Source of the DNA: an uncultured Eubacteriales bacterium
GTDB taxonomy: Bacteria; Bacillota; Clostridia; Oscillospirales; Acutalibacteraceae
DNA length: 64,000 bases
NCBI GenBank assembly: GCA_948527295.1
Contig: CAOSWK010000002.1
Coordinates: 72,416 to 136,415 of the forward strand
Direction of reading: 5' to 3'
The number at the start of each line of letters is the position of its first letter. The first letter of the stretch is position 1. This document shows positions 5,504 through 43,679 of this stretch, in pieces. Made by a program: the position numbers and the translations under genes. The notes beneath the pieces were generated by a model. It was not told the DNA's origin and searched no databases. It saw only the letters and a list, made by a program, of their open reading frames with translations.

Positions 5504-5866
5504 TTGAACAGCGGCTTGGCTAAAAAGTTATACCCTATTTTGGCGGTGTTCGCCGGAATAATCAGCGGTCTCTTGGGGGCTGGCGGCGGAATGCTGATTG
5601 TTCCTATATTGAAAAAATATGGCCTCGACCAACGCTCTACCCACGCCACTTCTGTTTGCATCATCCTGCCAATATGCCTCTTGAGCGCCATTGTCTACCT
5701 CATAAAAGGCAACGTCACCCTCTTCGACACGTTGCCGTATCTGCCTTTTAGCGTTTTGGGCGCGATTATCGGCTCTTTAATTTTGGCCAAAATTAACCAA
5801 GATCTTTTGCGCAAACTTTTTGGCGGATTCATGATTTGGGCAGCGATTCAGCTGCTTTTAAGATGA
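5504..5866 (+). CDS. TSUP/TauE-SafE family half-size (4-TM) membrane protein, part 1
   Basis: Gly-rich TSUP-type motif GLLGAGGGMLIVPIL, about 4 TM segments. TTG start 5-6 nt after GGAGGAGGG. Confidence 0.7.
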   Translation: MNSGLAKKLYPILAVFAGIISGLLGAGGGMLIVPILKKYGLDQRSTHATSVCIILPICLLSAIVYLIKGNVTLFDTLPYLPFSVLGAIIGSLILAKINQDLLRKLFGGFMIWAAIQLLLR

Positions 5867-6219
5867 ACTGGGTAATGGCCGCCATAGCCGGTACACTGTC
5901 TGCCATAATCGGCGCGATGGGGCTTGGCGGCGGCGGCGTTCTGCTAATTTACTTCAACCTATTCACGCAAACGCCTCAAACGCTGGCCCAAGGCATCAAC
6001 CTGCTTTTTTTCATCCCGTCCGCCATCGTCGCCATCATAATTTACATCAAGAAAGGGCTTGTAAACTTTAAGCTCGCCGTAATTTTTTCTCTGCTCGGCC
6101 TGGTTGGCGCTTTGGCAGGGGCTTACCTAGCCTGCTTCATCGAGAGCCGCGTTCTTTCAAAATTGTTCGCAATTCTTCTTTTAATCATGGGAGCCCTGCA
6201 ATTTAGGAAGAAAGCTTGA
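5863..6219 (+). CDS. TSUP/TauE-SafE family half-size (4-TM) membrane protein, part 2
   Basis: Motif GAMGLGGGGVLLIY, about 4 TM segments. ATG 5863 overlaps the TGA of part 1 (ATGA), consistent with translational coupling. Confidence 0.7.
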   Translation: MNWVMAAIAGTLSAIIGAMGLGGGGVLLIYFNLFTQTPQTLAQGINLLFFIPSAIVAIIIYIKKGLVNFKLAVIFSLLGLVGALAGAYLACFIESRVLSKLFAILLLIMGALQFRKKA

Positions 6220-10054: not shown

Positions 10055-10084
10055 ATCTTCGATCCCTTCACTTTTTAATATCGC

Positions 10085-10792
10085 CTAATCGTCTCTCCGC
10101 CTGCCAGCAGCCACAGAAATCCAATAAAGTAGAGACATCCCAGCCGTGAATGTGGCCGCCAAATACGTCATTGCAGCTGCTGTTAAAACTTTTTTTGCAC
10201 CCGTTAGCTCTTCTCCGCAAAGCGTTCCGCCCTGCTCCAGCGTTGCAATCGCCCTCCGGCTCGCGTCAAACTCAACCGGCAGCGTTATAACTTGAAAAAG
10301 CACCGCCAAGCTAAACAGCGCGATTCCCAAATTAACGACGAAGTCGTATTGCACCGGCAGCAAAAGGCCAATAAAAATCAGGGGCATAGACAAAGTCGAG
10401 CCAATGTTCGTTACAGGAACCAAGGCTTTTCTAATGTTCATCGGAGCATATCCGTTGGCGTGTTGAACTGCATGCCCGGCCTCATGGGCGGCAACTCCAA
10501 CAGCAGCCACCGAAGTAGAAGAATAAACCGAGTCCGACAGGCGAATTACATTAGTTCGCGGGTCAAAATGATCGGTTAAATCGCCAGAAACATGCTCAAC
10601 CTCAACACCCGTAACGCCGTTTTGCGCCAAAACCCGAGTAGCCGCGTCCGCTCCAGTAAGCCCCCTAGAATTCCTGACCTTCGAATACTTCGAGAAAGTG
10701 CTGCTGACCTTAAACTGCGCGTAAAGCGAGATTATCAGCGCCGGCACCATAAACAAAAAATAGCTGTAGTCAAAATAATAAAATCCGTACAT
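10085..10792 (-). CDS. Membrane zinc metallopeptidase (YugP/Zn_peptidase_2-like)
   Basis: HEAGHAVQH zinc motif flanked by TM segments. GGGAGGA SD upstream. Confidence 0.75.
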   Translation of the reverse strand: MYGFYYFDYSYFLFMVPALIISLYAQFKVSSTFSKYSKVRNSRGLTGADAATRVLAQNGVTGVEVEHVSGDLTDHFDPRTNVIRLSDSVYSSTSVAAVGVAAHEAGHAVQHANGYAPMNIRKALVPVTNIGSTLSMPLIFIGLLLPVQYDFVVNLGIALFSLAVLFQVITLPVEFDASRRAIATLEQGGTLCGEELTGAKKVLTAAAMTYLAATFTAGMSLLYWISVAAGRRRDD

Positions 10793-18196: not shown

Positions 18197-18248
18197 ATTT
18201 TACGGGGAGGTATAGGCACTCGGTGAGCTCTTGTGCCGATTAACACTT

Positions 18249-18947
18249 ATGAAGAAGATTTTGGTTGTGGAAGACGAGGCGGCAATTCGCGAATTTGTGG
18301 TTATTAACTTACAAAGAGCCGGATACGACGTGACGGAGGCTGATTGCGGAGAAAAAGCGCTGCAGATTTACGAGGCTGATCCGACTTTTGACATTGCTGT
18401 GCTCGATATCATGATGCCGGGAATTGACGGAATTTCGGTGTGCAAGGAGCTTCGGAAGCAGAACAACGAGATCGGGATAATCATGCTGACGGCGAAAACG
18501 CAGGAAATGGACAAAATCACTGGCTTGATGACGGGCGCGGACGATTACGTTACGAAACCTTTTAGCCCCTCGGAGCTTGTCGCTCGGATTGATGCGGTTT
18601 ATCGGCGAGTGGCTCTGGCTCAGATGCGCGCTGAAAATAAGTTTAAAGAAGAGCTGAAATCTGGCGAATTCATCTTGAATATGCGCAATCGAACACTCTT
18701 AAAGCGCGGCGAGTTGGTCGAGTTGACGCAGGTTGAATTTCAGATTATGGAATATTTTTTCTCTAACCCCAGCACGGCGCTTAGCCGGACGGACATTCTG
18801 AATCATGTTTGGGGCGATGATTACGTTGGCGAGGAGAAAATCGTTGACGTGAATATCCGCAGGCTGAGGATGAAGGTTGAGGATGAGCCCTCGCTTCCGC
18901 GGCACATCTTGACGGTATGGGGACTTGGCTACAAGTGGGAGGCTTAG
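18249..18947 (+). CDS. OmpR-family response regulator
   Basis: Receiver domain (VVEDE, DIMMPGIDG, LTAK) plus winged-helix output (VDVNIRRLRMK, WGLGYKW). Start set to MKKILVVEDE. Confidence 0.9.
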   Translation: MKKILVVEDEAAIREFVVINLQRAGYDVTEADCGEKALQIYEADPTFDIAVLDIMMPGIDGISVCKELRKQNNEIGIIMLTAKTQEMDKITGLMTGADDYVTKPFSPSELVARIDAVYRRVALAQMRAENKFKEELKSGEFILNMRNRTLLKRGELVELTQVEFQIMEYFFSNPSTALSRTDILNHVWGDDYVGEEKIVDVNIRRLRMKVEDEPSLPRHILTVWGLGYKWEA

Positions 18948-19001
18948 ATTCGCATTACGCGTGGGTTTGAGAATAGTCTTTTTTGAAAAGAGGCGAGTTT
19001 T

Positions 19002-20423
19002 ATGTTGGTTCGGGGCATCACCAGGCGGTGGCTTCTTAATAGCCTGGGCATGATTTTGGTCACTTTGGTCGCTATTGAGCTGGTTCTGGCGGTTTTCGTT
19101 CACGAATTTTTCTACAACGGCGTACAGCAAGCTGTTAGCGCTAAGGTGACTAGCCTTGTGAACGTTTTTTCGGGCTATCGGGAGGACTCGGAGAAGGATT
19201 TTGTGACCAAGGCCAAGATGTATATTTCGGATTTCGAAGATAAAAATTTGATGGAGGTCGTGGCCTTTAACAGCAGCAACGAGCCCATTTTTACCTCTAC
19301 GGGCTTTTTGCCTGCCAGCAATTTTGAGATGACAGACTATGCTATGGCACAGGAATCTGCGAGCCACGTTGGACTTTTTGTGGGGCGAAATTCCTCTGGC
19401 GAAAACGTGATGGCCACTACGAAGGCTATTTACACGGCCGACGGCGAATACATCGGCTCCATTCGATATATTGTGTCGCTGCGGTCTGTTGACAGCACTA
19501 TTTTCTGGCTGATAATTGGTTGCGTGGTCATTGGGCTTGCGATCTTGCTTTTCGTCATTATGTCCAGCTCATATTTCATCAACTCTATCGTTAATCCGAT
19601 TCGGGAAATCGGCAAAACAGCGCGGAAAATTGCGCTTGGAGATTTTAATGCAAGAATAGATAAACCTTACGATGACGAAGTTGGCGAGCTTTGCGACACT
19701 GTGAATTACATGGCTCGCAAGCTGGGCGAGGCTGAGAAGGTTAAGAATGAGTTTATCTCGTCTATTTCGCACGAACTGCGCACCCCTCTGACGGCGATTA
19801 AGGGCTGGGCCGAGACTATTGAGCTCGGCGAGGAAACGGACTCCGAAATGAACAAGCGTGGCCTCAAGGTTATAATTCACGAAGCTGAACGGCTCTGCGG
19901 TTTGGTGGAAGAGCTCTTGGATTTTTCTCGATTGCAATGCGGCAAAATGGTGCTGTCATTGGAGCGGATTGATATTTTGGCCGAAATCAGTGAGGCTGTT
20001 TACATGTTCAAAGACCGCGCCGCTTCGGAAAGCAAGGAACTTATTTATGCGGAACCTCCAATATTGTCACCAGTTTTGGGCGACAAAAACCGTCTGCGTC
20101 AAGTTTTCATCAACGTTATAGACAACGCCCTCAAATACACTGCGAGCGGCGGCACCGTCACCGTGAAGGTCAAGGAGGCCGCGGGCTACATTTACATCTC
20201 GGTCAGCGACACTGGCTGCGGCATCCCGGCGGAGCACCTGCCCCACGTTAAGGACAAATTTTACAAGGCTAACACGACTCAAAAAGGCTCTGGAATCGGC
20301 CTGGCAGTGGTTGATGAGCTCGTTCAGCTGCACTCTGGCAGCTTGGACATTGCGAGCGAAGAAAACGTTGGCACGGTCGTTACCATTGCCATCCCCATTG
20401 CAAAGGCCACGAGCGAAGGTTAA
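19002..20423 (+). CDS. Sensor histidine kinase (2 TM, extracytoplasmic loop, HAMP, HisKA, HATPase_c)
   Basis: H-box SHELRTPLT, N-box NALKYT, G-boxes DTGCGI and GSGIGL. Confidence 0.9.
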   Translation: MLVRGITRRWLLNSLGMILVTLVAIELVLAVFVHEFFYNGVQQAVSAKVTSLVNVFSGYREDSEKDFVTKAKMYISDFEDKNLMEVVAFNSSNEPIFTSTGFLPASNFEMTDYAMAQESASHVGLFVGRNSSGENVMATTKAIYTADGEYIGSIRYIVSLRSVDSTIFWLIIGCVVIGLAILLFVIMSSSYFINSIVNPIREIGKTARKIALGDFNARIDKPYDDEVGELCDTVNYMARKLGEAEKVKNEFISSISHELRTPLTAIKGWAETIELGEETDSEMNKRGLKVIIHEAERLCGLVEELLDFSRLQCGKMVLSLERIDILAEISEAVYMFKDRAASESKELIYAEPPILSPVLGDKNRLRQVFINVIDNALKYTASGGTVTVKVKEAAGYIYISVSDTGCGIPAEHLPHVKDKFYKANTTQKGSGIGLAVVDELVQLHSGSLDIASEENVGTVVTIAIPIAKATSEG

Positions 20424-23776: not shown

Positions 23777-23913
23777 GGCAATAAATCATCCTTTTTTATT
23801 TAATTTATTATATTTTTTAAGGATTTATGATAAAACTTTTGGCTCTGCCCTATTTACAAATTGCTATTTTAGCGGTAAAATAAATAACAAAAAGACTTTT
23901 GGAGGCATTGGAT

Positions 23914-24897
23914 ATGAAATTAAAGCTTAATTGGATTCCTTTTGTCATTTCGTTTATTTCCATTTTGGGTCTGCGGGTATACCAGATTTTGTCAATAGGC
24001 AATCCCGCTGTCAGAATTTATTGGGATAATTTTGAAATCGTCTGCTTCATCATTGCGGCTGCCGCTTTTGGAATTATAATGGTCGCAAGTTATATTTCAA
24101 AAGATGCCCCGGACGTTTTTGTGATTAAGAAAAATTTTTTAACCGGGTTCGTTGCGATTTTAACGGCTGCACTTGCTTTGTGGAACTCTTTTGAAAAATT
24201 TAGATATTATTGGTCGGCCGTAGAAAAAGATTGGGTAGACCTGTTTTATATTGTCACCGGCGTTTTTGCGGCGGTCGTCTTTGTTCTGATCGGACTTTGC
24301 TATATAAAAGAAAAAAATTATTTTGAAAAGAACAAATTGCTTGCATTGATGCCGACTTTATGGGTTCTAGCTATGATTTTGAAGCTGTTTTTTGAATACA
24401 ACTCCATCCAGACAAATGTAATTCACGTTTCTAACGCCCTTGCAAGGATCTTCTTGCTGTTCTTTATGTTCAGCCAGGCTCGGCTTTTTGCCACGCTGTT
24501 TAACGCGGCCACCTTTAAAAAGCTGTTCTATTTTGGGTTCTCTGCCGCTTTGTTTATGCTCATCTCTATCACAAACTTCTGGGCCGTTACTATGGACTTT
24601 GGTCGGGATTTTTCGCCGACGGAGATCGTCAATATCGTTACTGAGTTCTCTTTGATTTTGTACATTCTGTGCGTCATCTTTAGCATTCAGGTTGGCAAGA
24701 ATTTGGGTAACTCCGAAGACAAGCCTGTTGTAGAAAAAAAAGAAGACGTTGCGGTTGCAAGTTCTACAGCTGACGTGGCTAACACTAACACGGTTGAGAA
24801 TCGCGAAGAAATGGCCAAGGTCGACAGGTTAATTGAAGATATAAAAAATGAAAATGCCAGCAAAAATCTGGGTTCTAGCGAAGGAATGTCGAACTAA
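23914..24897 (+). CDS. Polytopic membrane protein of unknown function with an acidic C-terminal tail
   Basis: About 8 hydrophobic helices followed by a ~70-aa charged tail. ATG 23914 lies 8 nt after GGAGG. Confidence 0.6.
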   Translation: MKLKLNWIPFVISFISILGLRVYQILSIGNPAVRIYWDNFEIVCFIIAAAAFGIIMVASYISKDAPDVFVIKKNFLTGFVAILTAALALWNSFEKFRYYWSAVEKDWVDLFYIVTGVFAAVVFVLIGLCYIKEKNYFEKNKLLALMPTLWVLAMILKLFFEYNSIQTNVIHVSNALARIFLLFFMFSQARLFATLFNAATFKKLFYFGFSAALFMLISITNFWAVTMDFGRDFSPTEIVNIVTEFSLILYILCVIFSIQVGKNLGNSEDKPVVEKKEDVAVASSTADVANTNTVENREEMAKVDRLIEDIKNENASKNLGSSEGMSN

Positions 24898-28380: not shown

Positions 28381-29970
28381 ATGTCTAAAATTAGGAATGT
28401 AGCGGTCAGCGTCGTGTTTTCTCTGGCTCTGTTGTTTGTATTTTTGTTGCCCGCAAATTTTAGCAATCTAATCGTTCATGCGGTTGATACGCTGGAAGTT
28501 ACCGCTGGGATGATGCTTCCTGATGGGTTTGACGTTTTGCCGGACGGCAAGGGCAACTTTGTTATCACAAGTTATGATAACAACAATCAGCAAAGCACTA
28601 TAGCCTATTTAAGCGCGGCCAGCGGCATGCCTTCTCTTACGCATATCAACTACTCCCATTTTATCGTAACCGAAAACATCGACTACAAGTACACTACTGC
28701 GAGCTGTTATAGAGATCTTTCATTCGGTTTAGAAAATTGCGTTTTATTTACTTATCTAGACGCAGATAAAACGGTTGCCAAAAAAATCTCTATTGACGTT
28801 GAAAATTGCCAGTGTGATGGCTCCGGCACTTTAGACTTGGGCAGTATAATCATTGATTCGCCCCTTAAAATCGCTGTGTACGATGATTTTATCTTTTTTG
28901 TAAATAATACCGAAAAATCGCCTATCTCTGGCTATAATTCTAATTTTGAGCAATTGGACACGACGGGCTTAACTTACGATAACAAAGCTTTTCACTCTAT
29001 TTTTACGGACGTCTCCAAAAAATATCTGTATGCCTTGAATAGCTCTAACGATCTGGTGCGTTACAACATTGCTACCGGTAATTACACATTCGAAGCCCCC
29101 GAAAATACTATAAACTTTTCAAATTTGAAATTTGTAACCGATAATATCTTTGTGACGCCCGACAAACGGATAATCACTCTGAATAAAGATAGCTTTAAGT
29201 CCGACTCCGAAGTTGAAATTGCCGCAGAAATAACGGACTTTCCAGCTTGCGTGGTTGCCGGTTTTGACGATGCGTCGATTTTAATTAAAACTGAGGATAA
29301 GGTGATCTCGCGGATTCGTTGCTCGGACGGTGCTGTGACTGGCAAAATTGAGCTGACTGAGAATGTTTTGGCCATTTCTAAATCTGGCGATAAAATTATC
29401 GCTGTTACTGGCGCGGGCACCGGCAGTAATAAGCATATCGCTCTGCTAAAGGAGACTGACATAAAAGAGGTAACTCCTGCCAATCCCAGCAACCCTGGTG
29501 GCGGTAGTTCTGGTGATGGTGGCGATAATAACAATCCGCCGTCTGGTGCAGATGACGCCATAACTAGCGATATTTATACTGTTGACGCACAAAATCTCAC
29601 TATCACCGGCATTGAGCCGGGGACGACTTTTGCGGCGTTTAAAAATAACCTCATTTTTAATGGCTACAATCTGGGACTTAAAAAAGGTGCTACTGCTAAG
29701 CCCATCTACGCAAGTTCGACCAAAGTCGCTACTGGTAACTTTGCCTCCTTTGAAAGAGATGGCGCCGAAAAGGTTTTGTTTAAGCTTATTGTTACGGGCG
29801 ACATTACTGGCACGGGGACTTTGAACTCTCGCGATATTTCTGCTTTTGAAAATTATCTGTTGGGTAAGACTGAGCTAAATGAAGAATCCTTGCAAGCGGC
29901 GAATATAAATGGTGACGGCGACCAAGACGTTATTGACCTGTTTTTGATGAGCAAACTTATGCAAAAATAG
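28381..29970 (+). CDS. Secreted protein with a C-terminal dockerin module
   Basis: Signal peptide. P/G/N-rich linker (PANPSNPGGGSSGDGGDNNNPPSG). C-terminal duplicated Ca-loop/helix pair (GDITGTGTLNSRDISAFENYLLG and ANINGDGDQDVIDLFLMSKL) resembling a type I dockerin. Confidence 0.6.
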   Translation: MSKIRNVAVSVVFSLALLFVFLLPANFSNLIVHAVDTLEVTAGMMLPDGFDVLPDGKGNFVITSYDNNNQQSTIAYLSAASGMPSLTHINYSHFIVTENIDYKYTTASCYRDLSFGLENCVLFTYLDADKTVAKKISIDVENCQCDGSGTLDLGSIIIDSPLKIAVYDDFIFFVNNTEKSPISGYNSNFEQLDTTGLTYDNKAFHSIFTDVSKKYLYALNSSNDLVRYNIATGNYTFEAPENTINFSNLKFVTDNIFVTPDKRIITLNKDSFKSDSEVEIAAEITDFPACVVAGFDDASILIKTEDKVISRIRCSDGAVTGKIELTENVLAISKSGDKIIAVTGAGTGSNKHIALLKETDIKEVTPANPSNPGGGSSGDGGDNNNPPSGADDAITSDIYTVDAQNLTITGIEPGTTFAAFKNNLIFNGYNLGLKKGATAKPIYASSTKVATGNFASFERDGAEKVLFKLIVTGDITGTGTLNSRDISAFENYLLGKTELNEESLQAANINGDGDQDVIDLFLMSKLMQK

Positions 29971-30023: not shown

Positions 30024-31211
30024 ATGGAAAGTCTTGCGATTCTTTACGACAGCGAGGTGATTAACAATCTGCTGCCGATATTTGCCTTTCACCCCAAAAA
30101 TGTGGTGATTCTTTACGACTACAAATACACTAGCGTTAAGCATCTTGAGTACATAAAAAATGTCTGTATGTCGCGCTTTCCGAGCATTATTTTTGAATAT
30201 AAGGGCTACAACGGGCTTGACATCGAGCATATCTCCAAAACTTGCGTCTCTGTTATTCACAAAAATCCCTCCTGCTTTTTCGACATCACCGGCGCTGGCG
30301 AGTTTGGCGCGATTGGGGCTTATCAGGCCTGCAGAAAAACTTTTACACCAATTTTTAAGCTGGACGTTTTGGGCGAGCGGCTCATAAATGTTTTTGGATG
30401 CAAGTCGCTCGAGAAAAATTTTGTGATGCCAAAACTCAATATAGAAAATATTTTCGCCCTGCACGGTGCGCAAATCACCGGTTATAATCACGCTAGCCCC
30501 GCTTGTGACAATTTTGATCGGATACTAAAATTTTGCGCGGCGGTTTTTGACGATATCGAACTCTGGAAAAAGACTTGCCTCTACTTGCAAAGCGGCAATA
30601 CCAACTTTTCGCAAGGGTACAATAATCTGTTTTTTAAGGCGCCCAAACAGATCTCTAAAGGCAAATTGGAGGTCTCTTTAAACCGATTCAAGCTGCTTAA
30701 AGTGGCGCAGGAGCTAAATCTTATTTACAAGCTTGACACGAGTTCTTCTGAGATTTCTTTTTTCTATCACGACAAAAAGATTAAGTCATATCTGTCGGAC
30801 TTTGGCATCTGGCTGGAGCTTTTTTGTTACATCAACCTAAAGCGCGAGCGGCTGTTTCACGACGTGCGCATGAGCGTGAAGTTTGAGTGGAATAACAACA
30901 AAAATAAGCTTATGGAGATCGTCAACGAAATCGATCTGACCTTCTTCTACGGCATTCACCCATATTTTATCTCCTGCAAGCTCTCAGAGCCCTCGGCCGA
31001 CGCCCTGCGTGAGCTTAGCATGTATCCCTCCTATTTTGGCGGCAATAACTCTAAAAGCGCACTCGTTTTCGTCAGCAAAGTCAACAAGCAGCGCTCGTAT
31101 ACCTACACCCGCGCACACGATATGGGCATCTGTGTCATCGACGGTGACATGATTAAAAGCGGAAAATTTATTAGCGAGATAAAAAAATCTCTCAACATAA
31201 AAAAGCAATAA
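30024..31211 (+). CDS. Card1/Can2-like (DUF1887-type) protein: CARF-like N-terminal domain fused to a PD-(D/E)xK-like nuclease domain
   Basis: N-terminal Rossmann-like half (LAILYDSEVINNLLPIF..NVVILYD; FFDITGAGEF resembling the CARF DxTGGTK loop). C-terminal restriction-endonuclease-like pattern (WLELFCY ... NEIDLTFFY ... YFISCKLS). Strong SD GGAGGTGA 6 nt before ATG 30024. Confidence 0.6.
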   Translation: MESLAILYDSEVINNLLPIFAFHPKNVVILYDYKYTSVKHLEYIKNVCMSRFPSIIFEYKGYNGLDIEHISKTCVSVIHKNPSCFFDITGAGEFGAIGAYQACRKTFTPIFKLDVLGERLINVFGCKSLEKNFVMPKLNIENIFALHGAQITGYNHASPACDNFDRILKFCAAVFDDIELWKKTCLYLQSGNTNFSQGYNNLFFKAPKQISKGKLEVSLNRFKLLKVAQELNLIYKLDTSSSEISFFYHDKKIKSYLSDFGIWLELFCYINLKRERLFHDVRMSVKFEWNNNKNKLMEIVNEIDLTFFYGIHPYFISCKLSEPSADALRELSMYPSYFGGNNSKSALVFVSKVNKQRSYTYTRAHDMGICVIDGDMIKSGKFISEIKKSLNIKKQ

Positions 31212-32336: not shown

Positions 32337-33602
32337 TTATTTCTTTATAAACGCAGACAGTATACTACCTCTCGGGTCACACTTCACGACTATTTTATCT
32401 TCAAATTTCTTTTCTCTACCTTTGCTTGTTAAATATTTTAAATTTACTTCTCCATATGCCCCACCGTATGTTCTGGTTTCGTTACCTGTTCTCGACGACG
32501 CATCTGCTTCTCCTTGCGGCACCATGCTATGCGTACCCAAGCATTTTACTTCGTGAGTCTTTATATTATATCTAAAAGTTGCATGCATTATTACATACGC
32601 AACTATATTGCCGTCATTATCTTTATATACTATGTCTAGGTATCTTCTAACATACCTATACAAGTCGGTTGCGTCATTTTCTAAGTCTCTAACTTGTTCT
32701 ATGTTAGTATCCTGAACCTCTCTAACCAAGTTATGTCTTACCTGCTCAGTTCTTAATCCTAAATCCGTAAACTTTAAGCCGTCTCTATCCAGGTCTTCTT
32801 TTGGACCTCTTGTGATATTTCTGAAAACAATTTCTCCGTTTGCATAGCATATAATATCTGCATGAAATTCATCCGTACGCACTCTTATTCTTTTATCATT
32901 TAAGTGAGAAAAAAGTGTTACTATACATTGCCCCGGAGCCATATAGATTCCCTCATTTGCCGATATTTTCCAATCGTTGTTATATATATGAGCTTTTTCT
33001 TTCATCAAGTTGTTATCTTCAACCCATGCATTTTCACCATCATACACAAAATAGAACGCAAGAAAAAGTCCGCACAAATGCTCACCAGTCTCTTCAAAGT
33101 AAAAGTCTGTCCTTGCCTCTACTTTTCTACGAAAAACTTCTTGTCCGTCCTCATTAAAGCCATTTGAAATAGGCTCACTAATGCTTGTGTCACACACACA
33201 TTTTATTCCGTCTTCGGTTAAAAAGTCCTTCTTATGAATTACTTCCCAACCGTTTTTGGCATTTTGTTTTGAAACTTTACTCTGTTTATTTTCTTCTAAC
33301 GTGTCTACTACTAGCATTTTTATCAAGTCCGCTGTGTCCGGTTCCGAGTCTGGCACATCTGGAGTAATAATAATATTTTCATCATCGTCTGACGCAAAAT
33401 TTTTCGAGTGAACCATTGGTCCTAACTTGCTTGTATCTAAACGGTCTGTTGCCAATCTTACTATATCCAATGTATCAGGTTCCGGCTCTAGCACACCGTC
33501 GTTTAAAAAATCATGTGCAAATGCCGTTTCTGTGCCAATTGCTGGTCCGGTTAAAAAAAGTGAAAGTGCCATAAAACAAGATAGTATCCTTTTAATATTC
33601 AT
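32337..33602 (-). CDS. Secreted protein of unknown function (421 aa)
   Basis: Signal peptide ending AIGTETAFA. Two N-terminal EPDTxD[IL][VI][RK][LM] repeats. I recognise no catalytic motif. Lies 37 nt downstream of the PLC gene. Confidence 0.5.
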   Translation of the reverse strand: MNIKRILSCFMALSLFLTGPAIGTETAFAHDFLNDGVLEPEPDTLDIVRLATDRLDTSKLGPMVHSKNFASDDDENIIITPDVPDSEPDTADLIKMLVVDTLEENKQSKVSKQNAKNGWEVIHKKDFLTEDGIKCVCDTSISEPISNGFNEDGQEVFRRKVEARTDFYFEETGEHLCGLFLAFYFVYDGENAWVEDNNLMKEKAHIYNNDWKISANEGIYMAPGQCIVTLFSHLNDKRIRVRTDEFHADIICYANGEIVFRNITRGPKEDLDRDGLKFTDLGLRTEQVRHNLVREVQDTNIEQVRDLENDATDLYRYVRRYLDIVYKDNDGNIVAYVIMHATFRYNIKTHEVKCLGTHSMVPQGEADASSRTGNETRTYGGAYGEVNLKYLTSKGREKKFEDKIVVKCDPRGSILSAFIKK

Positions 33603-33639: not shown

Positions 33640-34410
33640 TTACACTCTGTATGTAATCGCTATCAAATAAAATTTATAAAGAAGGCCTGCAATCGCCTTT
33701 TGTGCATTCTTAATAGAATTTTCTGCCACTTGCTCTTTCGATAAGAAACCTTCATGTAAAGCATAAAGGTTGTCGTCCGCTAAAAGCGCAGAACAGACTG
33801 CTACTGTCTCTAAGCTATTAACTTCATAATAACGAAACTCTCTTCTTTGCATCGAGGGTCTTACTCTGTCTTGCACACTCTTGCAAGTATTTTCAAAACT
33901 TACATGGAAGAAGAAGTTAAATCCAGTATCCAGTAAAGTTTGGTTATTCGTATGTACCGGGGTATTAAGATCTCCTAAAAAGTGCAAAGCTCTACCAAGC
34001 TCTTCCATGGCTCTTCTCCGATATGCTCTGGCTTTTTCCAAATTTCCATTGGCCATTGCTTGATAATATAATTTCATGTAATGTAATGCACGGTTAAAAT
34101 GATCAACAAATCTTGTTAATGCAGAATCATTCTCACCCATAAAGTTTAGTCCTGTTACAGGGTTATAAAAATGATATTTATATGCTCCATAAGTCTCATC
34201 CTCGTCTGGCTTTACGCAATAAACCAAAATTATCTCTATATCCTCTTCTGTAAAAAAATCTATACCAAAAATATCCAAAAGAATGTCAAGTCCCCTCTGT
34301 GTAACATATACATGAGTTGGACCGTCAAAAGCCGAACAAGGGCTACCTGCTACACCAAAAATTAACATCATACTCAAAAAAAATGAAAATACCTTTTTTA
34401 AACATCTCAT
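33640..34410 (-). CDS. Secreted zinc-dependent phospholipase C (PF00882-type, catalytic domain only)
   Basis: Signal peptide. Zinc-ligand pattern as in the Bacillus cereus PC-PLC / C. perfringens alpha-toxin N-domain: PTHVYV, YKYHFYNP, HFLGDLNTPVH, FHVSFEN. Confidence 0.75.
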   Translation of the reverse strand: MRCLKKVFSFFLSMMLIFGVAGSPCSAFDGPTHVYVTQRGLDILLDIFGIDFFTEEDIEIILVYCVKPDEDETYGAYKYHFYNPVTGLNFMGENDSALTRFVDHFNRALHYMKLYYQAMANGNLEKARAYRRRAMEELGRALHFLGDLNTPVHTNNQTLLDTGFNFFFHVSFENTCKSVQDRVRPSMQRREFRYYEVNSLETVAVCSALLADDNLYALHEGFLSKEQVAENSIKNAQKAIAGLLYKFYLIAITYRV

Positions 34411-34551: not shown

Positions 34552-34580
34552 ATTATATCATTTTATTTATTTTTTGTCAA
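34552..34580 (-). promoter_or_regulatory. Consensus SigA-type promoter for the PLC cluster
   Basis: On the minus strand: TTGACA (34580-34575), 17-nt spacer, TATAAT (34557-34552), within a ~200-nt AT-rich region. Confidence 0.55.
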
Positions 34581-39582: not shown

Positions 39583-40593
39583 TTACGGCCTTTTCCGCCG
39601 ATAATAACTCCTCGGCATAACAAGCTCCAAGCGTTTGCCCGTGCCATCTGCCACGCAGTCAAGCGGGCGTTCTGCCACATGCACAACCATCCTCGTCTCT
39701 TGCGAGATCAGCTGATCTAGTCCGCGAAGCAAAGCGCCGCCGCCAGTCAGCATAATCCCATGGTCAATAATGTCAGCCGAGAGCTCCGGCGGAGTCTTCT
39801 CAAGCGTGCTTTTAATAGCATCAATAATGGCTGTCAGTGGCTCAAATAAGGCCTCCCGCACCTCTTCGGCCGTAATCTCAATATGCTTTGGCAATCCGTC
39901 CACCAAATTTCTGCCTTTAATCTCCATCGAGCCTTCATTCTCGTAGCTAAATGCCGACCCAATCTGGATCTTAATGTTCTCCGCCGTGCGCTCGCCAATC
40001 AGCAGATTATACTTCTTTTTAATGTAAGCTACAATCGCCTCGTCAAACCGATTTCCCGCCACGCGCACAGACTGCGATGTAACAATGTCCCCCAAAGAAA
40101 TAACCGCAATCTCCGAAGTGCCGCCGCCAATGTCAACAACCATACTTCCAGTAGGCTCCGCAACAGGCAACCCAGCTCCAATAGCAGCCGCCATAGGTTC
40201 TTGAATCAGCTCAACTTCCTTTGCCCCAGCCTGACGCGTTGCATCTTCAACCGCGCGCTTTTCAACCTCTGTAACGCCCGCCGGAATGCACACAACGACC
40301 TTTGGCCGCTTGCTAAACAAACTAGTTTTCACTGTTTTTCTTATAAAATGCTTCAACATAGTGGCAGTAATATCAAAATTTGCGATCACACCGTCTTTTA
40401 AAGGGCTCACTGCAACAATAGACCCCGGCGTTCTGCCTATCATATCTTTAGCCTGCAGCCCAACCGCCAAAACAGTGTCAGTATTAACGTCCACCGCAAC
40501 AACCGACGGCTCGCGCAAGATAATCCCTTTATTCTTCATAAACACCAAAGTATTCGCCGTGCCCAAATCTATCCCAATATCCCGTGAAAACAT
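39583..40593 (-). CDS. mreB: Rod shape-determining protein MreB (actin-like ATPase)
   Basis: [11 protein letters not shown] phosphate-1 motif, [17 protein letters not shown]. Start set to ATG 40593 after AAGAGG. Confidence 0.95.
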
Positions 40594-40810
40594 TTTGCCT
40601 CTTTTGCTCCCTTCAACCTCAGCACGATCACACATTCGCGCATGCGCAAAAACGTTATTTTTAAATATTATACTACACGCGGCGCGGATTTCTCAACAAA
40701 AAAACTTACATTTAAAAATTATCTCCTAAACACACAAAAAAAGCGCGCATCCACACATATTTTTAGCAGATTACGCGCCTTAAACTTCTTTCTTCTTTTT
40801 TCAGATTTAA

Positions 40811-41089
40811 TTAAAAAAACAAATTTTTACTTGCCCATTTTTCTGCTTCTTTTTTGGTGGCAAATGTTTTACTCTTCTTCGGACCTATTCCCAAAGTCCT
40901 TCCCTCAACAGTATAATCAGTCCACTCTTTAGGTACGTAATTCGTCGCTTCCGTTACTTCGGAATGAAATGTCTCCATTATTTTATAGCCTCCAGAAGCA
41001 GACTCTAATTCTTCTTCAGTTAAGCAAACCTCATTGCCATTCTTTTTGCTTGCTTTTGCCAAAGTTTCATCGTTTTTACCTTTTTTCAT
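40811..41089 (-). CDS. Small protein (92 aa) with a double-glycine-type N-terminal leader, paralog 1
   Basis: AAGGAGAG SD 7 nt before the ATG. 34-aa N-terminus MKKGKNDE...VCLTEEELESASGG. C-terminal KEWT..V..LGI.P..KTFATKKEAEKW is shared with the upstream paralog. Confidence 0.6.
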   Translation of the reverse strand: MKKGKNDETLAKASKKNGNEVCLTEEELESASGGYKIMETFHSEVTEATNYVPKEWTDYTVEGRTLGIGPKKSKTFATKKEAEKWASKNLFF

Positions 41090-41142
41090 CTTTCATCTCT
41101 CCTTTTCTAATTTTAACAACATATTACACATGTTGCTATGCA

Positions 41143-41171
41143 ATTATACCAAATATTTTTAGTTTTGTCAA
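41143..41171 (-). promoter_or_regulatory. Consensus SigA-type promoter for paralog 1
   Basis: Minus strand: TTGACA (41171-41166), 17-nt spacer, extended -10 TGGTATAAT (TATAAT 41148-41143). The -35 box abuts the stop codon of paralog 2. Confidence 0.6.
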
Positions 41172-41444
41172 TTACATTTTTCCTTTTAGCCAGTTTTGAG
41201 CTTCCTCTTCTGTCGCAAACGTCTTCTTTTCAGTAAAAGGAATCAGTCCAAAAAAGACATTTTTCTTAACCGAAGCTGTCCATTTTTCCTTTCCATTTTC
41301 AGAGACACAACTCAAACCCCAGCCCACAGAAGAACCTCTGCCACCCCCAGCAGCAGCCTCCAGCTGGTCGTCCGTAAGGCAAATGCTCTCATCAAATTCA
41401 ACCCTAGTTCTGTTCAAAGCCTCATCACGCTTACCTTTTTTCAT
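41172..41444 (-). CDS. Small protein (90 aa) with a double-glycine-type N-terminal leader, paralog 2
   Basis: Start set to ATG 41444 (MKKGKRDE), ~9 nt after GAAAGGGA. 34-aa N-terminus ending ICLTDDQLEAAAGG. C-terminal KEKWTASVKK..FGLIPF.EKKTFATEEEAQNW. Confidence 0.6.
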   Translation of the reverse strand: MKKGKRDEALNRTRVEFDESICLTDDQLEAAAGGGRGSSVGWGLSCVSENGKEKWTASVKKNVFFGLIPFTEKKTFATEEEAQNWLKGKM

Positions 41445-41493
41445 ATTTATCATCCCTTTCTAAAATAAACAGCACATAAAAATTGTTGACACA

Positions 41494-41522
41494 ATTATAC
41501 CAAAATATTTTTAAATTGTCAA
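41494..41522 (-). promoter_or_regulatory. Consensus SigA-type promoter for paralog 2
   Basis: Minus strand: TTGACA (41522-41517), 17-nt spacer, TGGTATAAT (TATAAT 41499-41494). Nearly identical to the 41143-41171 module. Confidence 0.6.
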
Positions 41523-41579
41523 TATTTTTGTATTAAACTACAGCATACCTTAAATAATTAAATGCTTTTTAGCTCTTCA

Positions 41580-42017
41580 TTACTTGCCAGTTGAACCAAA
41601 ACCGCCCTCTCCACGAACCGTGCTCTCTAGACTTTCTACTTCACAAAAAGACACAGGCAAAACCGGCATTATTATCATCTGCGCAATGCGTTCATTCTGT
41701 TTAACCGTGTAATCCTTTGCACTAAAATTCCTCAAACTAACGTAAATTTCGCCTCTGTAGTCACTGTCCACCACGCCAACGGAATTTGCCAAAGAAATCC
41801 CAAACTTAGTCGCAAGGCCACTTCTTGCAAAAATAAAAGCAGCCATCTCTTTGCTTGGCAACTCAATCGCAATCCCCATCGCAACTAAAGCCGATTCACC
41901 AGCTTTTATCGTAATATCCTCATCTATGCAAGCGTATAAGTCCAGCCCAGCAGCACCCACTGTTGCCCGCTGCGGAATTATCGCACCTTCTCGCTTCTTT
42001 TGCACTTTCACAACCAT
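41580..42017 (-). CDS. dut: dUTP diphosphatase
   Basis: AGLDL, GVVDSDYRGE, RGEGGFGSTG motifs. The start is ambiguous (ATG 42017 or TTG 42035). Confidence 0.88.
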   Translation of the reverse strand: MVVKVQKKREGAIIPQRATVGAAGLDLYACIDEDITIKAGESALVAMGIAIELPSKEMAAFIFARSGLATKFGISLANSVGVVDSDYRGEIYVSLRNFSAKDYTVKQNERIAQMIIMPVLPVSFCEVESLESTVRGEGGFGSTGK

Positions 42018-42242
42018 CTCAGACTTCACTATCAATCAGCCTTTCTTAAAGCTCATATTATTAAAATTTTAATTACACAAAATAAAAATCGCGCCTAGCT
42101 ATAAACGCGACTTTGCATATACTCCAAAACACAACCGGTTGGTCTTGGTAGTTATAGAGAACCTACAAACTTAAAACGCGGGCGATAAAATAAAAAATTC
42201 ACAATCAGCTTCGATCGCGAATTGGTGTGCGCGACCACGCGC

Positions 42243-42316
42243 TGGCTGCGGAACTAGGATTCGAACCCAGACAAACAGAGTCAGAGTCTGCTGTGCTACC
42301 CTTACACAATTCCGCA
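42243..42316 (-). tRNA. tRNA-Gln (anticodon CUG), CCA encoded
   Basis: Hand-folded cloverleaf. Acceptor TGCGGAA/TTCCGCA with U1-A72 and G73, both typical of bacterial tRNA-Gln. D stem GTGT/GCAC. Anticodon stem GCAGA/TCTGT with loop CTCTGAC. T arm CTGGG-TTCGAAT-CCTAG. 3' GCCA. Confidence 0.85.
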
Positions 42317-43471: not shown

Positions 43472-43645
43472 TTCATTCACCTCCACAGCCAAAATTTTCA
43501 GATACACAAAAGCAAAACGCCCATTCCGCAAACCGCAGAAAAGGCGCAAACACTCACAAAACAAGCATACCCGCGCTAATCCTCGGTAGGCGTGAACTCA
43601 CATTACGCATAATCATGCACCTACTGTCTTTGGAATAACAGTCTT
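43472..43645 (-). promoter_or_regulatory. Probable ribosomal protein L10 leader (autoregulatory 5' UTR of rplJL)
   Basis: ~170-nt untranslated, GC-rich, structured region between a consensus promoter and the rplJ start. This is the position the Firmicutes L10 leader occupies. The fold was not verified. Confidence 0.45.
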
Positions 43646-43650
43646 AAAGT

Positions 43651-43679
43651 ATGATACCACTCATTTTCAAGTTTGTCAA
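43651..43679 (-). promoter_or_regulatory. SigA-type promoter for rplJL
   Basis: Minus strand: TTGACA (43679-43674), 17-nt spacer, TGGTATCAT (TATCAT 43656-43651). Confidence 0.55.

What the first reader, a model, noticed from the sequence alone, without database searches (positions are those of the whole stretch)
40811..41525. Tandem paralogous small proteins with double-glycine-type leaders and duplicated consensus promoters, wedged into the mreBCD-dut core region with no exporter, immunity or modification gene nearby
Seen directly:
- There are two minus-strand ORFs of 92 and 90 aa, about 351 bp apart.
- Each is preceded by the same ~32-bp promoter module (TTGACA, 17 nt, TGGTATAAT) and a good SD.
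- Both begin MKKGK.DE and carry a 34-aa N-terminus ending (V/I)CLT(E/D)(E/D)(E/Q)LE.A.GG. The GG falls at residues 33-34 in both.
- Both share a conserved C-terminal block: W-T..V....G(L/I).P...K(K)TFAT.EEA..W.

From established knowledge, an acidic helix of the form LxxxELExxxGG matches the double-glycine leader consensus. Such leaders are cleaved by C39-peptidase ABC exporters (PCATs) in class II bacteriocins, lanthipeptides and some signalling peptides.

The oddities are these:
- The predicted cores are 56-58 aa, hydrophilic and highly charged. Typical bacteriocin cores are cationic or hydrophobic.
- Nothing within about 20 kb looks like a PCAT, immunity protein, RiPP maturase or quorum-sensing two-component system.
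- The neighbours are essential housekeeping genes.
- There is no terminator between the two copies, because the -35 box of the downstream copy abuts the stop codon of the upstream copy.

By inference this could be an undescribed family of strongly expressed GG-exported small proteins (signal, effector or cell-envelope factor). Alternatively it is an intracellular small-protein family whose N-terminus only mimics a GG leader.
Basis: partly seen in the sequence, partly recalled or inferred. Interest (0 to 1): 0.72.

Follow-up and report, generated by a model that had tools for sequence, protein, structure and literature searches.

The report
Orphan small proteins with double-glycine leaders
Two neighbouring, probably very strongly expressed genes encode small proteins found only in one group of uncultured mouse-gut bacteria; each starts with a tag that looks like the "cut-and-export" signal of peptide-secreting ABC transporters, so they are probably secreted mini-proteins of unknown role, but no exporter gene could be found.

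Summary
Two minus-strand genes, A (41172-41444, 90 aa) and B (40811-41089, 92 aa), each sit behind a perfect extended-consensus promoter and share one strong terminator. They are real genes (dN/dS below 1).

The family is tiny. Only two 50%-identity clusters turned up among 1.84 billion representative proteins, and only two species among 185,579 species genomes. No source names it and no curated model reaches its cutoff. Every member lies between dut and mreB, as A only, B only, or A+B.

Residues 1-34 are acidic and modelled as disordered. They are more conserved than the rest and end in L(-12)xxx[E/Q](-8)L(-7)xxA(-4)xGG. For B this is the best match to a double-glycine leader matrix among about 122,000 six-frame positions. 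A profile-profile comparison aligns it in register (P = 8.6e-5).

The 55-60 aa cores are mildly cationic and hydrophilic. They vary between strains and model as a three-strand sheet plus helix with no significant structural match.

No C39/PCAT exporter, immunity gene or maturase lies in the window or the 10 kb beyond its start. Whole genomes could not be scanned.

Best reading (about 0.5): a new family of PCAT-exported mini-proteins using an unlinked exporter. Main rival (about 0.3): an intracellular binding protein with an acidic tail.

The parts
41494..41522 (-). Promoter of paralog A: TTGACA-17-(TG)TATAAT, perfect extended consensus
   Evidence: It scores 12/12 with TG. It is one of only 3 exact matches in the window, against 0 in 100 shuffles. 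It is conserved in all related loci.
41172..41444 (-). Paralog A coding sequence (90 aa plus stop). It is the widespread type of the family.
   Evidence: dN/dS is below 1 against five other alleles.
41343..41444 (-). Paralog A leader, residues 1-34, ending ICLTDDQLEAAAGG
   Evidence: GG lies at residues 33-34 in all alleles. The leader matrix gives 10.7 bits, third in the window. It is acidic, pI 4.8.
41175..41342 (-). Paralog A core, 56 aa, modelled as three strands plus a C-terminal helix
   Evidence: AlphaFold2 gives mean pLDDT 78.9 with E6-15, E18-27, E36-42, H45-55. The core has pI 9.3 and net charge +3.
41143..41171 (-). Promoter of paralog B. Its -35 box directly follows the stop codon of A.
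41115..41137 (-). 5'-proximal hairpin in the paralog B leader RNA, possibly an mRNA stabiliser
   Evidence: The hairpin folds at -8.2 kcal/mol with z -4.3, and 0 of 200 shuffles fold as well. The same hairpin is present in L013 (z -3.5). The stabilising function is inferred.
40811..41089 (-). Paralog B coding sequence (92 aa plus stop)
   Evidence: dN/dS is below 1.
40988..41089 (-). Paralog B leader, residues 1-34, ending VCLTEEELESASGG
   Evidence: It is the top-scoring double-glycine-leader match among about 122,000 six-frame positions (22.3 bits). hhalign places it in register. pLDDT is below 50 with a short helix at residues 25-31.
40814..40987 (-). Paralog B core, 58 aa, strand-strand-strand-helix
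   Evidence: The full-length model has core pLDDT about 65-79, with E35-45, E53-61, E64-69, H79-89. The core has pI 9.0.
40736..40781 (-). Intrinsic terminator shared by both genes. It separates them from the mreB promoter.
   Evidence: It folds at -18.2 kcal/mol with z -3.9, followed by U7. An equivalent stem with sequence differences is present in the clade II locus L001.
40667..40696 (-). Separate mreB promoter (context only, not part of the unit)
   Evidence: It scores 11/12 and is conserved in all loci.

Best explanation
A and B are precursors of a new, genus-restricted family of small proteins that carry a double-glycine secretion leader.

Proposed mechanism:
1. Each gene is transcribed from its own near-ideal sigma-A promoter. 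B is also read through from A's promoter. Both transcripts stop at one shared terminator before mreB.
2. The 34-residue acidic, unstructured leader ends in L(-12)-x3-[E/Q](-8)-L(-7)-x2-A(-4)-x-G-G.
3. The C39 peptidase domain of a peptidase-containing ABC transporter (PCAT), encoded elsewhere in the genome, would bind this leader, cut after Gly34 and export the cargo.
4. The 55-60 residue, mildly cationic cargo would fold outside the cell into a three-strand sheet plus helix.

There is no immunity gene, and the core is hydrophilic and strain-variable. The exported protein is therefore more likely a strain-specific signal or a surface or envelope factor than a pore-forming bacteriocin.

Shown here: gene reality, the promoter and terminator architecture, the leader motif and its statistics, the disorder of the leader, the faster-evolving core, the narrow distribution and the fixed locus.

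Inferred only: high expression, cleavage, export, the exporter's existence and the extracellular role.
For: - Leader match: B ranks first and A third among about 122,000 six-frame positions with a double-glycine leader matrix. B's 22.3 bits falls within the leave-one-out range of the training leaders (8.4-33.4); A's 10.7 bits is at its low end.
- hhalign aligns family columns 21-34 to the leader consensus, ending exactly at GG (P 8.6e-5).
- The motif fits the published consensus I/L/V(-12)-x3-E(-8)-L(-7)-V(-4)-G-G quoted in PMC12184118.
- The GG position is fixed at residues 33-34 in all alleles of both types.
- The leader is disordered and is followed directly by the first strand of the core.
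- The leader is acidic and the core cationic.
- The leader is more conserved than the core: 16/34 identical versus about 24% between paralogs. Leader dN/dS is about 0.07-0.25 against 0.25-0.6 for the core in within-clade comparisons. In allele P0004 the leader has only three substitutions, none in the last 16 residues, while the core has diverged to dN 0.5.
- A-only, B-only and A+B strains occur in both clades at one fixed locus. This resembles the allelic diversity of signalling and bacteriocin peptides.
- Precedent for unlinked exporters: pneumococcal BriC uses ComAB, and VP1 has no known exporter (PMC7595303).
- Precedent for a genus-restricted, hyper-abundant double-glycine-leader protein in a gut member of the same broad order: MAM of Faecalibacterium.
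Against: - No C39/PCAT gene was found among the 30 larger window ORFs scanned, nor among the called genes of the window's contig around the locus and in the 10 kb beyond the window start. None was seen in the flanks returned (up to 10 kb each side) for the related loci whose called genes were listed (L001-L018). In most known systems, including MAM and CtA/PCAT1, the exporter is adjacent.
- No curated leader or bacteriocin model hits, even at E up to 10.
- Paralog A scores only 10.7 bits. It has Gln at -8, and both paralogs have Ala at -4.
- At 34 residues the leader is longer than the 15-30 typical of class II leaders (typical range from memory).
- No other protein among billions shares this leader, so there is no leader family with diverse cargos.
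- A constitutive-looking consensus promoter is unusual for signalling peptides or bacteriocins.
- The leader matrix was built from sequences recalled from memory.
Confidence: 0.5

Rival explanations
1. The proteins are intracellular and abundant, and bind nucleic acid or a protein partner. The basic strand-strand-strand-helix domain would be the binding module. It may act with the preceding helix as an alpha-beta3-alpha unit like a double-stranded-RNA-binding domain, or resemble the arm/AP2-type DNA-binding domains of phage integrases. The acidic N-terminal tail would be a regulatory or partner-binding segment, and the GG only a hinge.
For: - The best structural matches, none significant, are double-stranded-RNA-binding domains in the PDB (E 0.18-0.5, TM about 0.5).
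- In BFVD the best matches are small phage proteins and integrase N-termini (E 0.016-0.36).
- Sub-threshold Pfam hits fall on the C-terminal KTFATxEEAxxW element: Arm-DNA-bind_4 (E 0.04) and DUF1391.
- Weak profile hits go to AP2-repeat/HNH-like proteins carrying the same element.
- The neighbourhood is housekeeping, the promoter looks constitutive, and there is no exporter nearby.
- The core pI is 8-9.5.
Against: - None of these matches is significant.
- The tail is modelled as disordered and not packed on the domain.
- The tail is the most conserved part, while the supposed binding domain varies sharply between closely related strains (P0004). That is the opposite of what is expected for a housekeeping binder.
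- The net charge of +1 to +4 is modest for a nucleic-acid binder.
- The in-register match to the double-glycine consensus would then be a coincidence, conserved in both paralogs.
Confidence: 0.3
2. The leader serves a modification pathway. The N-terminal segment would recruit an unlinked maturase (radical SAM or other), and the product would be a modified peptide rather than a plain exported mini-protein.
For: - The leader is conserved and the core variable.
- A Cys is invariant at -13, and Cys occurs in many A-type cores.
- Double-glycine leaders are also used by lanthipeptides and related peptides (established knowledge; PMC10885120 appears in the listing but was not read).
Against: - No maturase lies in the 74 kb examined. 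The only radical SAM protein there is RlmN-like.
- B-type cores have no Cys.
- The cores are predicted to be folded domains with a conserved hydrophobic core (W, F, A, W). That is unlike typical modified-peptide cores.
Confidence: 0.07
3. The genes are a domesticated phage or mobile-element remnant, such as a moron-like small gene cassette. They would persist at a recombination-prone spot with no secretion-related role.
For: - B has low GC (36%, GC3 31%) against 45% for the window.
- The nearest fold neighbours are small uncharacterised phage proteins.
- Presence and absence vary between strains, and a hybrid promoter in L013 suggests deletion between the promoter repeats.
- Apparently frameshifted alleles P0013 and P0018 exist.
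Against: - No integrase, repeats, tRNA-flanked island or other phage genes lie at the locus in any genome.
- The same locus is occupied in both clades, which indicates vertical inheritance.
- Selection is purifying.
- PHROGs gives no significant hit.
Confidence: 0.08

Closest known systems
MAM (Microbial Anti-inflammatory Molecule) of Faecalibacterium and its PCAT (PMC12184118)
   Same: - It is restricted to one genus, with no known domains.
- It is among the most abundant proteins of the cell.
- It has an N-terminal disordered leader ending in GG, with L(-12)/E(-8)/L(-7).
- It is diverse between species.
- Its host is a gut anaerobe, probably of the same broad order (host placement of the window organism is inferred, not tested).
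   Different: - The MAM leader is 21 aa with the MMMPAN motif, and its cargo is 113 aa and helical. Here the leader is 34 aa and the cargo 55-60 aa with a strand-strand-strand-helix model.
- The PCAT is adjacent to the MAM gene. No exporter is nearby here.
- There is no sequence similarity.
CtA, the substrate of PCAT1 in Clostridium (Acetivibrio) thermocellum (PMC8794836, PMC6959990)
   Same: It is a double-glycine-leader precursor whose cargo is a polypeptide of unknown function. The leader binds the C39 domain and the GG is the cleavage site.
   Different: - The CtA leader has GG at residues 23/24 and is encoded next to PCAT1.
- A sequence search of the PDB with the family profile or the leader found no match.
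Orphan pneumococcal double-glycine peptides BriC and VP1 (PMC7595303)
   Same: - They are stand-alone double-glycine peptide genes not encoded with a dedicated exporter. BriC uses ComAB, and VP1's exporter is unknown.
- Multiple alleles exist in the population.
- VP1 is very highly expressed, and both have non-bacteriocin roles.
   Different: - They are under quorum-sensing or Rgg control rather than a constitutive-type consensus promoter.
- From memory, they are much shorter peptides with no predicted globular fold.
- There is no sequence similarity.
Class II bacteriocin precursors (for example lactococcin A, pediocin, colicin V)
   Same: - An anionic double-glycine leader precedes a cationic core.
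- Tandem paralogous structural genes recall two-peptide bacteriocins.
- Cores vary between strains.
   Different: - There is no immunity gene and no exporter or accessory gene at the locus.
- The core is hydrophilic (GRAVY -0.4 to -0.9) and predicted to be globular.
- Most strains carry only one of the two genes, so they are not an obligate pair.
Arm/AP2-type DNA-binding domains and double-stranded-RNA-binding domains
   Same: - The layout is three antiparallel strands followed by a helix that begins T-x-x-E-A.
- The size is about 55-70 aa.
   Different: - Pfam scores are below the cutoff (Arm-DNA-bind_4 14 bits against 22.3).
- The dsrm family is not among the matches listed at E up to 1-10.
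- Foldseek E-values are all above 0.01.

Membership tests
Double-glycine leader peptides (substrates of C39-peptidase ABC exporters, PCAT/AMS) | Gly-Gly (or GA/GS) at -2/-1, at the end of an N-terminal extension | tested here: met
   GG lies at residues 33-34 and is invariant in all 10 distinct leaders of both types.
Double-glycine leader peptides (substrates of C39-peptidase ABC exporters, PCAT/AMS) | Consensus I/L/V(-12)-x3-E(-8)-L(-7)-x2-V/I/L(-4)-x-G-G (as quoted in PMC12184118) | tested here: met
   - B has L(-12), E(-8), L(-7) and A(-4). A has L(-12), Q(-8), L(-7) and A(-4).
- The leader matrix ranks B first (22.3 bits) and A third (10.7 bits) among about 122,000 positions.
- hhalign is in register, P 8.6e-5, probability 60%.
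- Caveats: -4 is Ala, A is marginal, and the matrix was built from leaders recalled from memory.
Double-glycine leader peptides (substrates of C39-peptidase ABC exporters, PCAT/AMS) | Match to a curated leader or bacteriocin signal model (NCBIfam/TIGRFAM, Pfam) | tested here: not met
   NCBIfam gives no hit at E up to 10. Pfam gives no leader or bacteriocin family. Such short models are insensitive, so this is weak negative evidence.
Double-glycine leader peptides (substrates of C39-peptidase ABC exporters, PCAT/AMS) | Leader is a detachable, non-hydrophobic extension, not a Sec signal and not part of the fold | tested here: met
   Residues 1-33 have pLDDT below 50, with a short helix at 25-31 just before GG, and the first strand of the core starts at residue 35. 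Leader GRAVY is -0.6 to -1.2.
Double-glycine leader peptides (substrates of C39-peptidase ABC exporters, PCAT/AMS) | Exporter with a C39 peptidase domain encoded next to the precursor gene | tested here: not met
   No Peptidase_C39/ABC_membrane protein was found among the 30 larger window ORFs scanned, nor among the called genes of the window's contig around the locus and in the 10 kb beyond the window start. None was seen in the flanks returned (up to 10 kb each side) for loci L001-L018, whose called genes were listed.
Double-glycine leader peptides (substrates of C39-peptidase ABC exporters, PCAT/AMS) | Exporter with a C39 domain anywhere in the genome; cleavage after GG; export | not testable with these tools
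The remaining tests need experiments.
Class II (unmodified) bacteriocins | Cationic mature peptide | tested here: met
   Core pI is 8.1-9.5 and net charge +1 to +4.
Class II (unmodified) bacteriocins | Hydrophobic or amphiphilic membrane-active core | tested here: not met
   Core GRAVY is -0.43 to -0.90. The core is predicted to be a globular strand-strand-strand-helix domain.
Class II (unmodified) bacteriocins | Dedicated immunity gene adjacent to the structural gene | tested here: not met
   Between dut and mreB there are only the one or two family genes, their promoters, one terminator and the mreB promoter, in all loci.
MAM family (Faecalibacterium) | Leader motif MMMPANx(8,11)VxGG and an adjacent PCAT (PMC12184118) | tested here: not met
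   The leaders begin MKKGK/MKKGN/MRKGK and end (A/S)xGG. No PCAT is adjacent. The resemblance is functional only.
Arm/AP2-type DNA-binding domain (Pfam PF14657 and relatives) | Score above the Pfam gathering threshold | tested here: not met
   The best score is 14 bits (E 0.04) against a cutoff of 22.3, covering only 13 residues.
Arm/AP2-type DNA-binding domain (Pfam PF14657 and relatives) | Three-strand sheet plus C-terminal helix, with a significant structural match | tested here: inconclusive
   The topology fits. The Foldseek matches to putative integrases in BFVD are at E 0.12-0.36, and no such match appears in the top 50 for the PDB.
Double-stranded-RNA-binding domain (dsRBD) | alpha-beta3-alpha fold with a significant sequence or structural match | tested here: inconclusive
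   The top PDB matches are dsRBDs, but at E 0.18-0.5 and TM 0.3-0.56. The dsrm family is not among the Pfam matches listed. The would-be first helix has pLDDT below 50.

The most novel reading that the evidence does not exclude
An uncultured mouse-gut genus of Eubacteriales keeps a dedicated hot-spot between dut and mreB. There, interchangeable cassettes (type A, type B or both) encode constitutively hyper-expressed mini-proteins with a double-glycine leader. An unlinked PCAT would cut and export them as folded, strain-specific surface or signalling proteins. This would be a second, unrelated example of the Faecalibacterium MAM principle, and it would show that PCATs supply abundant structural or recognition proteins and not only peptides.
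Probability: 0.3. Interest if true: 0.6.

Novelty: new member of a known kind. Interest (0 to 1): 0.45.

Why it matters
If the leader is functional, this adds an unannotated protein family to the substrates of peptidase-containing ABC exporters. Its cargo would be a small folded hydrophilic domain, not a membrane-active peptide. The gene is probably among the most strongly transcribed in the cell and differs between closely related strains.

Together with MAM of Faecalibacterium, that would suggest gut Clostridia commonly use this route for abundant envelope or recognition proteins. Genome mining that relies on exporter adjacency and curated leader models misses such genes.

If the leader is only a mimic, the case is a useful warning. 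An in-register double-glycine consensus can then arise in an intracellular protein.

Tried and rejected
- Curated families. Pfam, NCBIfam and PHROGs gave nothing at or above any cutoff. Only sub-threshold hits fell on the C-terminal strand-helix element.
- Homology searches. Two single-protein searches found 4 and 8 cluster representatives. The exhaustive profile search of 1.84 billion representatives found only the two family clusters and two fragments. The remaining hits were repeat proteins (WD40-like and similar) and AP2-repeat proteins, judged spurious. A leader-only profile search found only a truncated allele. Two attempts failed on parameter limits.
- Source names. None exists for any cluster member.
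- PDB sequence searches with the family profile and with the leader gave only chance hits to ornithine transcarbamoylase, or nothing.
- Structure searches (PDB twice, BFVD once) gave no match at E of 0.001 or better.
- Looking for the family in another genomic context, ideally beside an exporter. The GTDB species genomes and JGI metagenomes returned only the same dut-mreB locus.
- Exporter hunt. Thirty window ORFs were scanned with Pfam and 10 kb beyond the window start was fetched. Nothing was found. The look-up at the other window end failed because that protein is not on record.
- RNA element in the region. Rfam found only tRNA-Gln and the L10 leader, both elsewhere. The A-type 5' UTR has no significant structure (z +0.29).
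- Rejected: spurious ORFs or non-coding DNA. dN/dS is below 1, and frame, start, SD, promoter and terminator are all conserved.
- Rejected: a Sec signal or lipoprotein, because there is no hydrophobic stretch.
- Rejected: an obligate two-peptide bacteriocin, because most strains carry one gene only.
Full report
**1. What is in the sequence**

On the minus strand, between dut (41580-42035) and mreB (39583-40635), lie two small ORFs. A is at 41172-41444 (90 aa) and B at 40811-41089 (92 aa).

Each is preceded by a perfect TTGACA-17-TATAAT promoter with the TG extension. That exact pattern occurs three times in the 64 kb window and never in 100 shuffles. The two 32-nt promoter modules are 78% identical and 351 bp apart.

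Each gene has a strong Shine-Dalgarno sequence about 9 nt before its ATG. The -35 box of B directly follows the stop codon of A. Transcripts that start at A's promoter should therefore read into B.

A single strong intrinsic terminator follows B (-18.2 kcal/mol, z -3.9, then U7). After it comes a separate mreB promoter. The B-type 5' UTR begins with a significant hairpin (z -4.3). The A-type UTR has no significant structure.

**2. They are real genes of a very small family**

The paralogs are 34% identical. Searches of 5.8 billion proteins returned 4 cluster representatives for B and 8 for A. A profile search that reads every one of 1.84 billion representatives found only two clusters at E below 1e-10, plus two fragments. 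The other weak hits are repeat proteins.

Among 185,579 species genomes, only two carry the family. Both are "uncultured Eubacteriales bacterium" assemblies from the mouse gut catalogue. The JGI metagenomes added one more locus of the same kind. No source gives the proteins a name. Pfam, NCBIfam and PHROGs give nothing at or above any cutoff.

Pairwise dN/dS is below 1 throughout, with dS up to 0.9 in A and 1.9 in B. The ORFs are therefore under purifying selection.

**3. A fixed locus with interchangeable content**

In every locus recovered, the gene or genes lie between dut and mreB. The flanking MreC sequences define two clades, at 95% or more and at about 84% identity to the window.
- Clade I contains A+B (the window and five near-identical loci), A only (L011, L018, L019) and B only (L013).
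- Clade II contains A only (L001-L004, L012, L017) and B only (L015, L016).

The promoter, the type-specific 5' UTR, the terminator and the mreB promoter are conserved in all loci. In L013 an A-like promoter is joined to the B-type UTR. This looks like a deletion between the two promoter repeats (inference).

Apparently frameshifted alleles exist (P0013, P0018).

**4. Anatomy of the protein**

Residues 1-34:
- They are acidic (pI 4.4-6.2) and hydrophilic.
- Their length is fixed, and M1, K3, E8, C22, L23, T24, E29, G33 and G34 are invariant.
- AlphaFold2 models residues 1-33 at pLDDT below 50, with a short helix at 25-31.

The remainder:
- It models as three antiparallel strands and a C-terminal helix. 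pLDDT is about 65-79 in the full-length model and averages 78.9 for the A core alone.
- The core is mildly cationic (pI 8.1-9.5) and hydrophilic.
- The positions conserved between paralogs are the likely hydrophobic core (W, G, P, K, F, A, W).

Foldseek finds no significant neighbour. In the PDB the best matches are the sheet-helix part of double-stranded-RNA-binding domains (E 0.18 or worse). In BFVD they are small uncharacterised phage proteins and a few integrase N-termini (E 0.016 or worse).

**5. Is the N-terminus a double-glycine leader?**

Counting back from GG, B reads L(-12)TEEE(-8)L(-7)ESA(-4)SGG. A reads L(-12)TDDQ(-8)L(-7)EAA(-4)AGG. The published consensus is I/L/V(-12)-x3-E(-8)-L(-7)-V(-4)-G-G (PMC12184118).

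It ranks B first (22.3 bits) and A third (10.7 bits) among about 122,000 six-frame positions of the window. Leave-one-out scores of the training leaders span 8.4-33.4 bits. A profile-profile comparison aligns family columns 21-34 with the leader consensus, ending exactly at GG (P 8.6e-5, probability 60%).

The leader is more conserved than the core:
- Between paralogs it is 16/34 identical, against about 24% for the core.
- Within clades, leader dN/dS is about 0.07-0.25 and core dN/dS 0.25-0.6.
- In allele P0004 the leader has only three substitutions, none in the last 16 residues, while the core has diverged to dN 0.5 and gained a 5-residue insertion.

This is the pattern expected if the N-terminus is constrained by an external, conserved partner such as a peptidase domain, rather than by packing against its own variable core (inference).

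Against the leader reading:
- No curated leader model hits.
- Paralog A is a marginal match.
- At 34 residues the leader is longer than most class II leaders (typical range from memory).
- No other protein carries this leader.

**6. The missing exporter**

Thirty window ORFs, including the 10 longest, were scanned. They are housekeeping or unrelated genes:
- PknB/PP2C, PriA, RlmN, formyltransferase, GAPDH, RF1, Sua5 and SpoIID;
- an OmpR-type two-component system and an ABC importer;
- cohesin and dockerin proteins;
- V-ATPase subunit I, FtsH, TilS, GdpP and RNase J. The precomputed listing for the window's own contig adds the remaining V-ATPase subunits.

The 10 kb beyond the window start also lacks a C39 exporter. 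So do the flanks of the related loci whose called genes were listed (L001-L018). There is no room for an immunity gene at the locus. The rest of the genome could not be reached with the tools, so the key test remains open.

Unlinked exporters do have precedent. Pneumococcal BriC is exported by ComAB, and VP1 has no known exporter (PMC7595303).

**7. Interpretation**

The most likely reading (about 0.5) is a new family of double-glycine-leader precursors. A 55-60 aa folded, cationic, strain-variable cargo would be cut after Gly34 and exported by a PCAT encoded elsewhere. With no immunity gene and a hydrophilic core, it would act as a signal or envelope/surface factor rather than a classical bacteriocin.

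The closest functional analogue is MAM of Faecalibacterium. MAM is genus-restricted and matches no known domain. It is the second most abundant protein of the cell and carries a disordered double-glycine leader (PMC12184118). There, however, the PCAT is adjacent and the cargo is unrelated.

The main rival (about 0.3) is an abundant intracellular binding protein with an acidic tail. It is supported only by non-significant fold and motif resemblances and by the housekeeping context. Modification-pathway and mobile-remnant readings are minor.

**8. Novelty and score**

The family itself is undescribed, but the principle is known: a double-glycine leader on a small protein, possibly with an unlinked exporter. 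I therefore file it as a new member of a known kind. Membership is still incomplete, because the leader motif is met, the adjacent exporter is not met, and genome-wide exporter presence and cleavage are untested.

Interest is moderate (0.45). The polymorphic cassette at a housekeeping locus and the parallel to MAM are attractive. Function and export remain inferred.

Noticed in passing
window 34552-34580 (-): This is the third and only other perfect extended-consensus promoter in the window (TTGACA-17-TGnTATAAT). It lies about 140 nt upstream of the gene at 33640-34410, which has a weak Zn-dependent phospholipase C (PF00882) match. That gene may also be very strongly expressed.
   Followed up: partly
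L013 359-8956 (+): In the B-only strain L013 a 2,865-aa leucine-rich-repeat (LRR_5) protein lies directly upstream of dut. The window and the other loci have rplJ-rplL (and tRNA-Gln in the window) there. This is a second structural difference beside the variable slot.
   Followed up: no
L013 about 10076-10210: The B-only locus L013 carries about 130 bp of extra A+T-rich sequence between the gene's stop codon and the shared terminator. The other loci lack it, and its origin is unknown.
   Followed up: no
P0013 (39 aa) and P0018 (51 aa), from related metagenome and NCBI contigs: These are apparently truncated or frameshifted A-type alleles. P0013 loses the frame just before the GG, and P0018 enters the frame from another one. 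Either the gene is dispensable in some strains or these are assembly errors.
   Followed up: partly
window 4295-5356 (+) and 28381-29970 (+): One protein contains a cohesin plus a cadherin-like domain, and another contains a dockerin. The organism therefore probably builds a cellulosome- or amylosome-like surface complex, which fits a Ruminococcus-like member of the Eubacteriales.
   Followed up: no
window 18231-20423 (+): An OmpR-type response regulator and a HAMP/HisKA histidine kinase lie about 21 kb from the finding. They are not the LytTR/HPK10 type usually tied to double-glycine pheromones, and nothing links them to the small genes.
   Followed up: partly
window 5504-5866 and 5836-6219 (+): Two overlapping ORFs of 120 and 127 aa each match TauE (sulfite exporter family) in the precomputed annotation. 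This may be a split gene or a frameshift.
   Followed up: no
window 42243-42316 (-) and 43503-43651 (-): tRNA-Gln(CTG) lies between rplL and dut. An L10 leader RNA (RF00557, 58.6 bits) lies upstream of rplJ.
   Followed up: yes
window 40811-41089 versus the rest of the window: Paralog B is compositionally atypical (GC 36%, GC3 31%, against 45% for the window). Paralog A (GC3 40%) resembles the ribosomal protein genes (GC3 39-43%). This could reflect codon bias of highly expressed genes or a different history for B.
   Followed up: partly
window 32337-33602 (-), 30024-31211 (+), 23899-24897 (+): Three sizeable ORFs (421, 395 and 332 aa) have no Pfam match at E of 1e-5 or better. The first is conserved downstream of the phospholipase-like gene in all related loci.
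   Followed up: no
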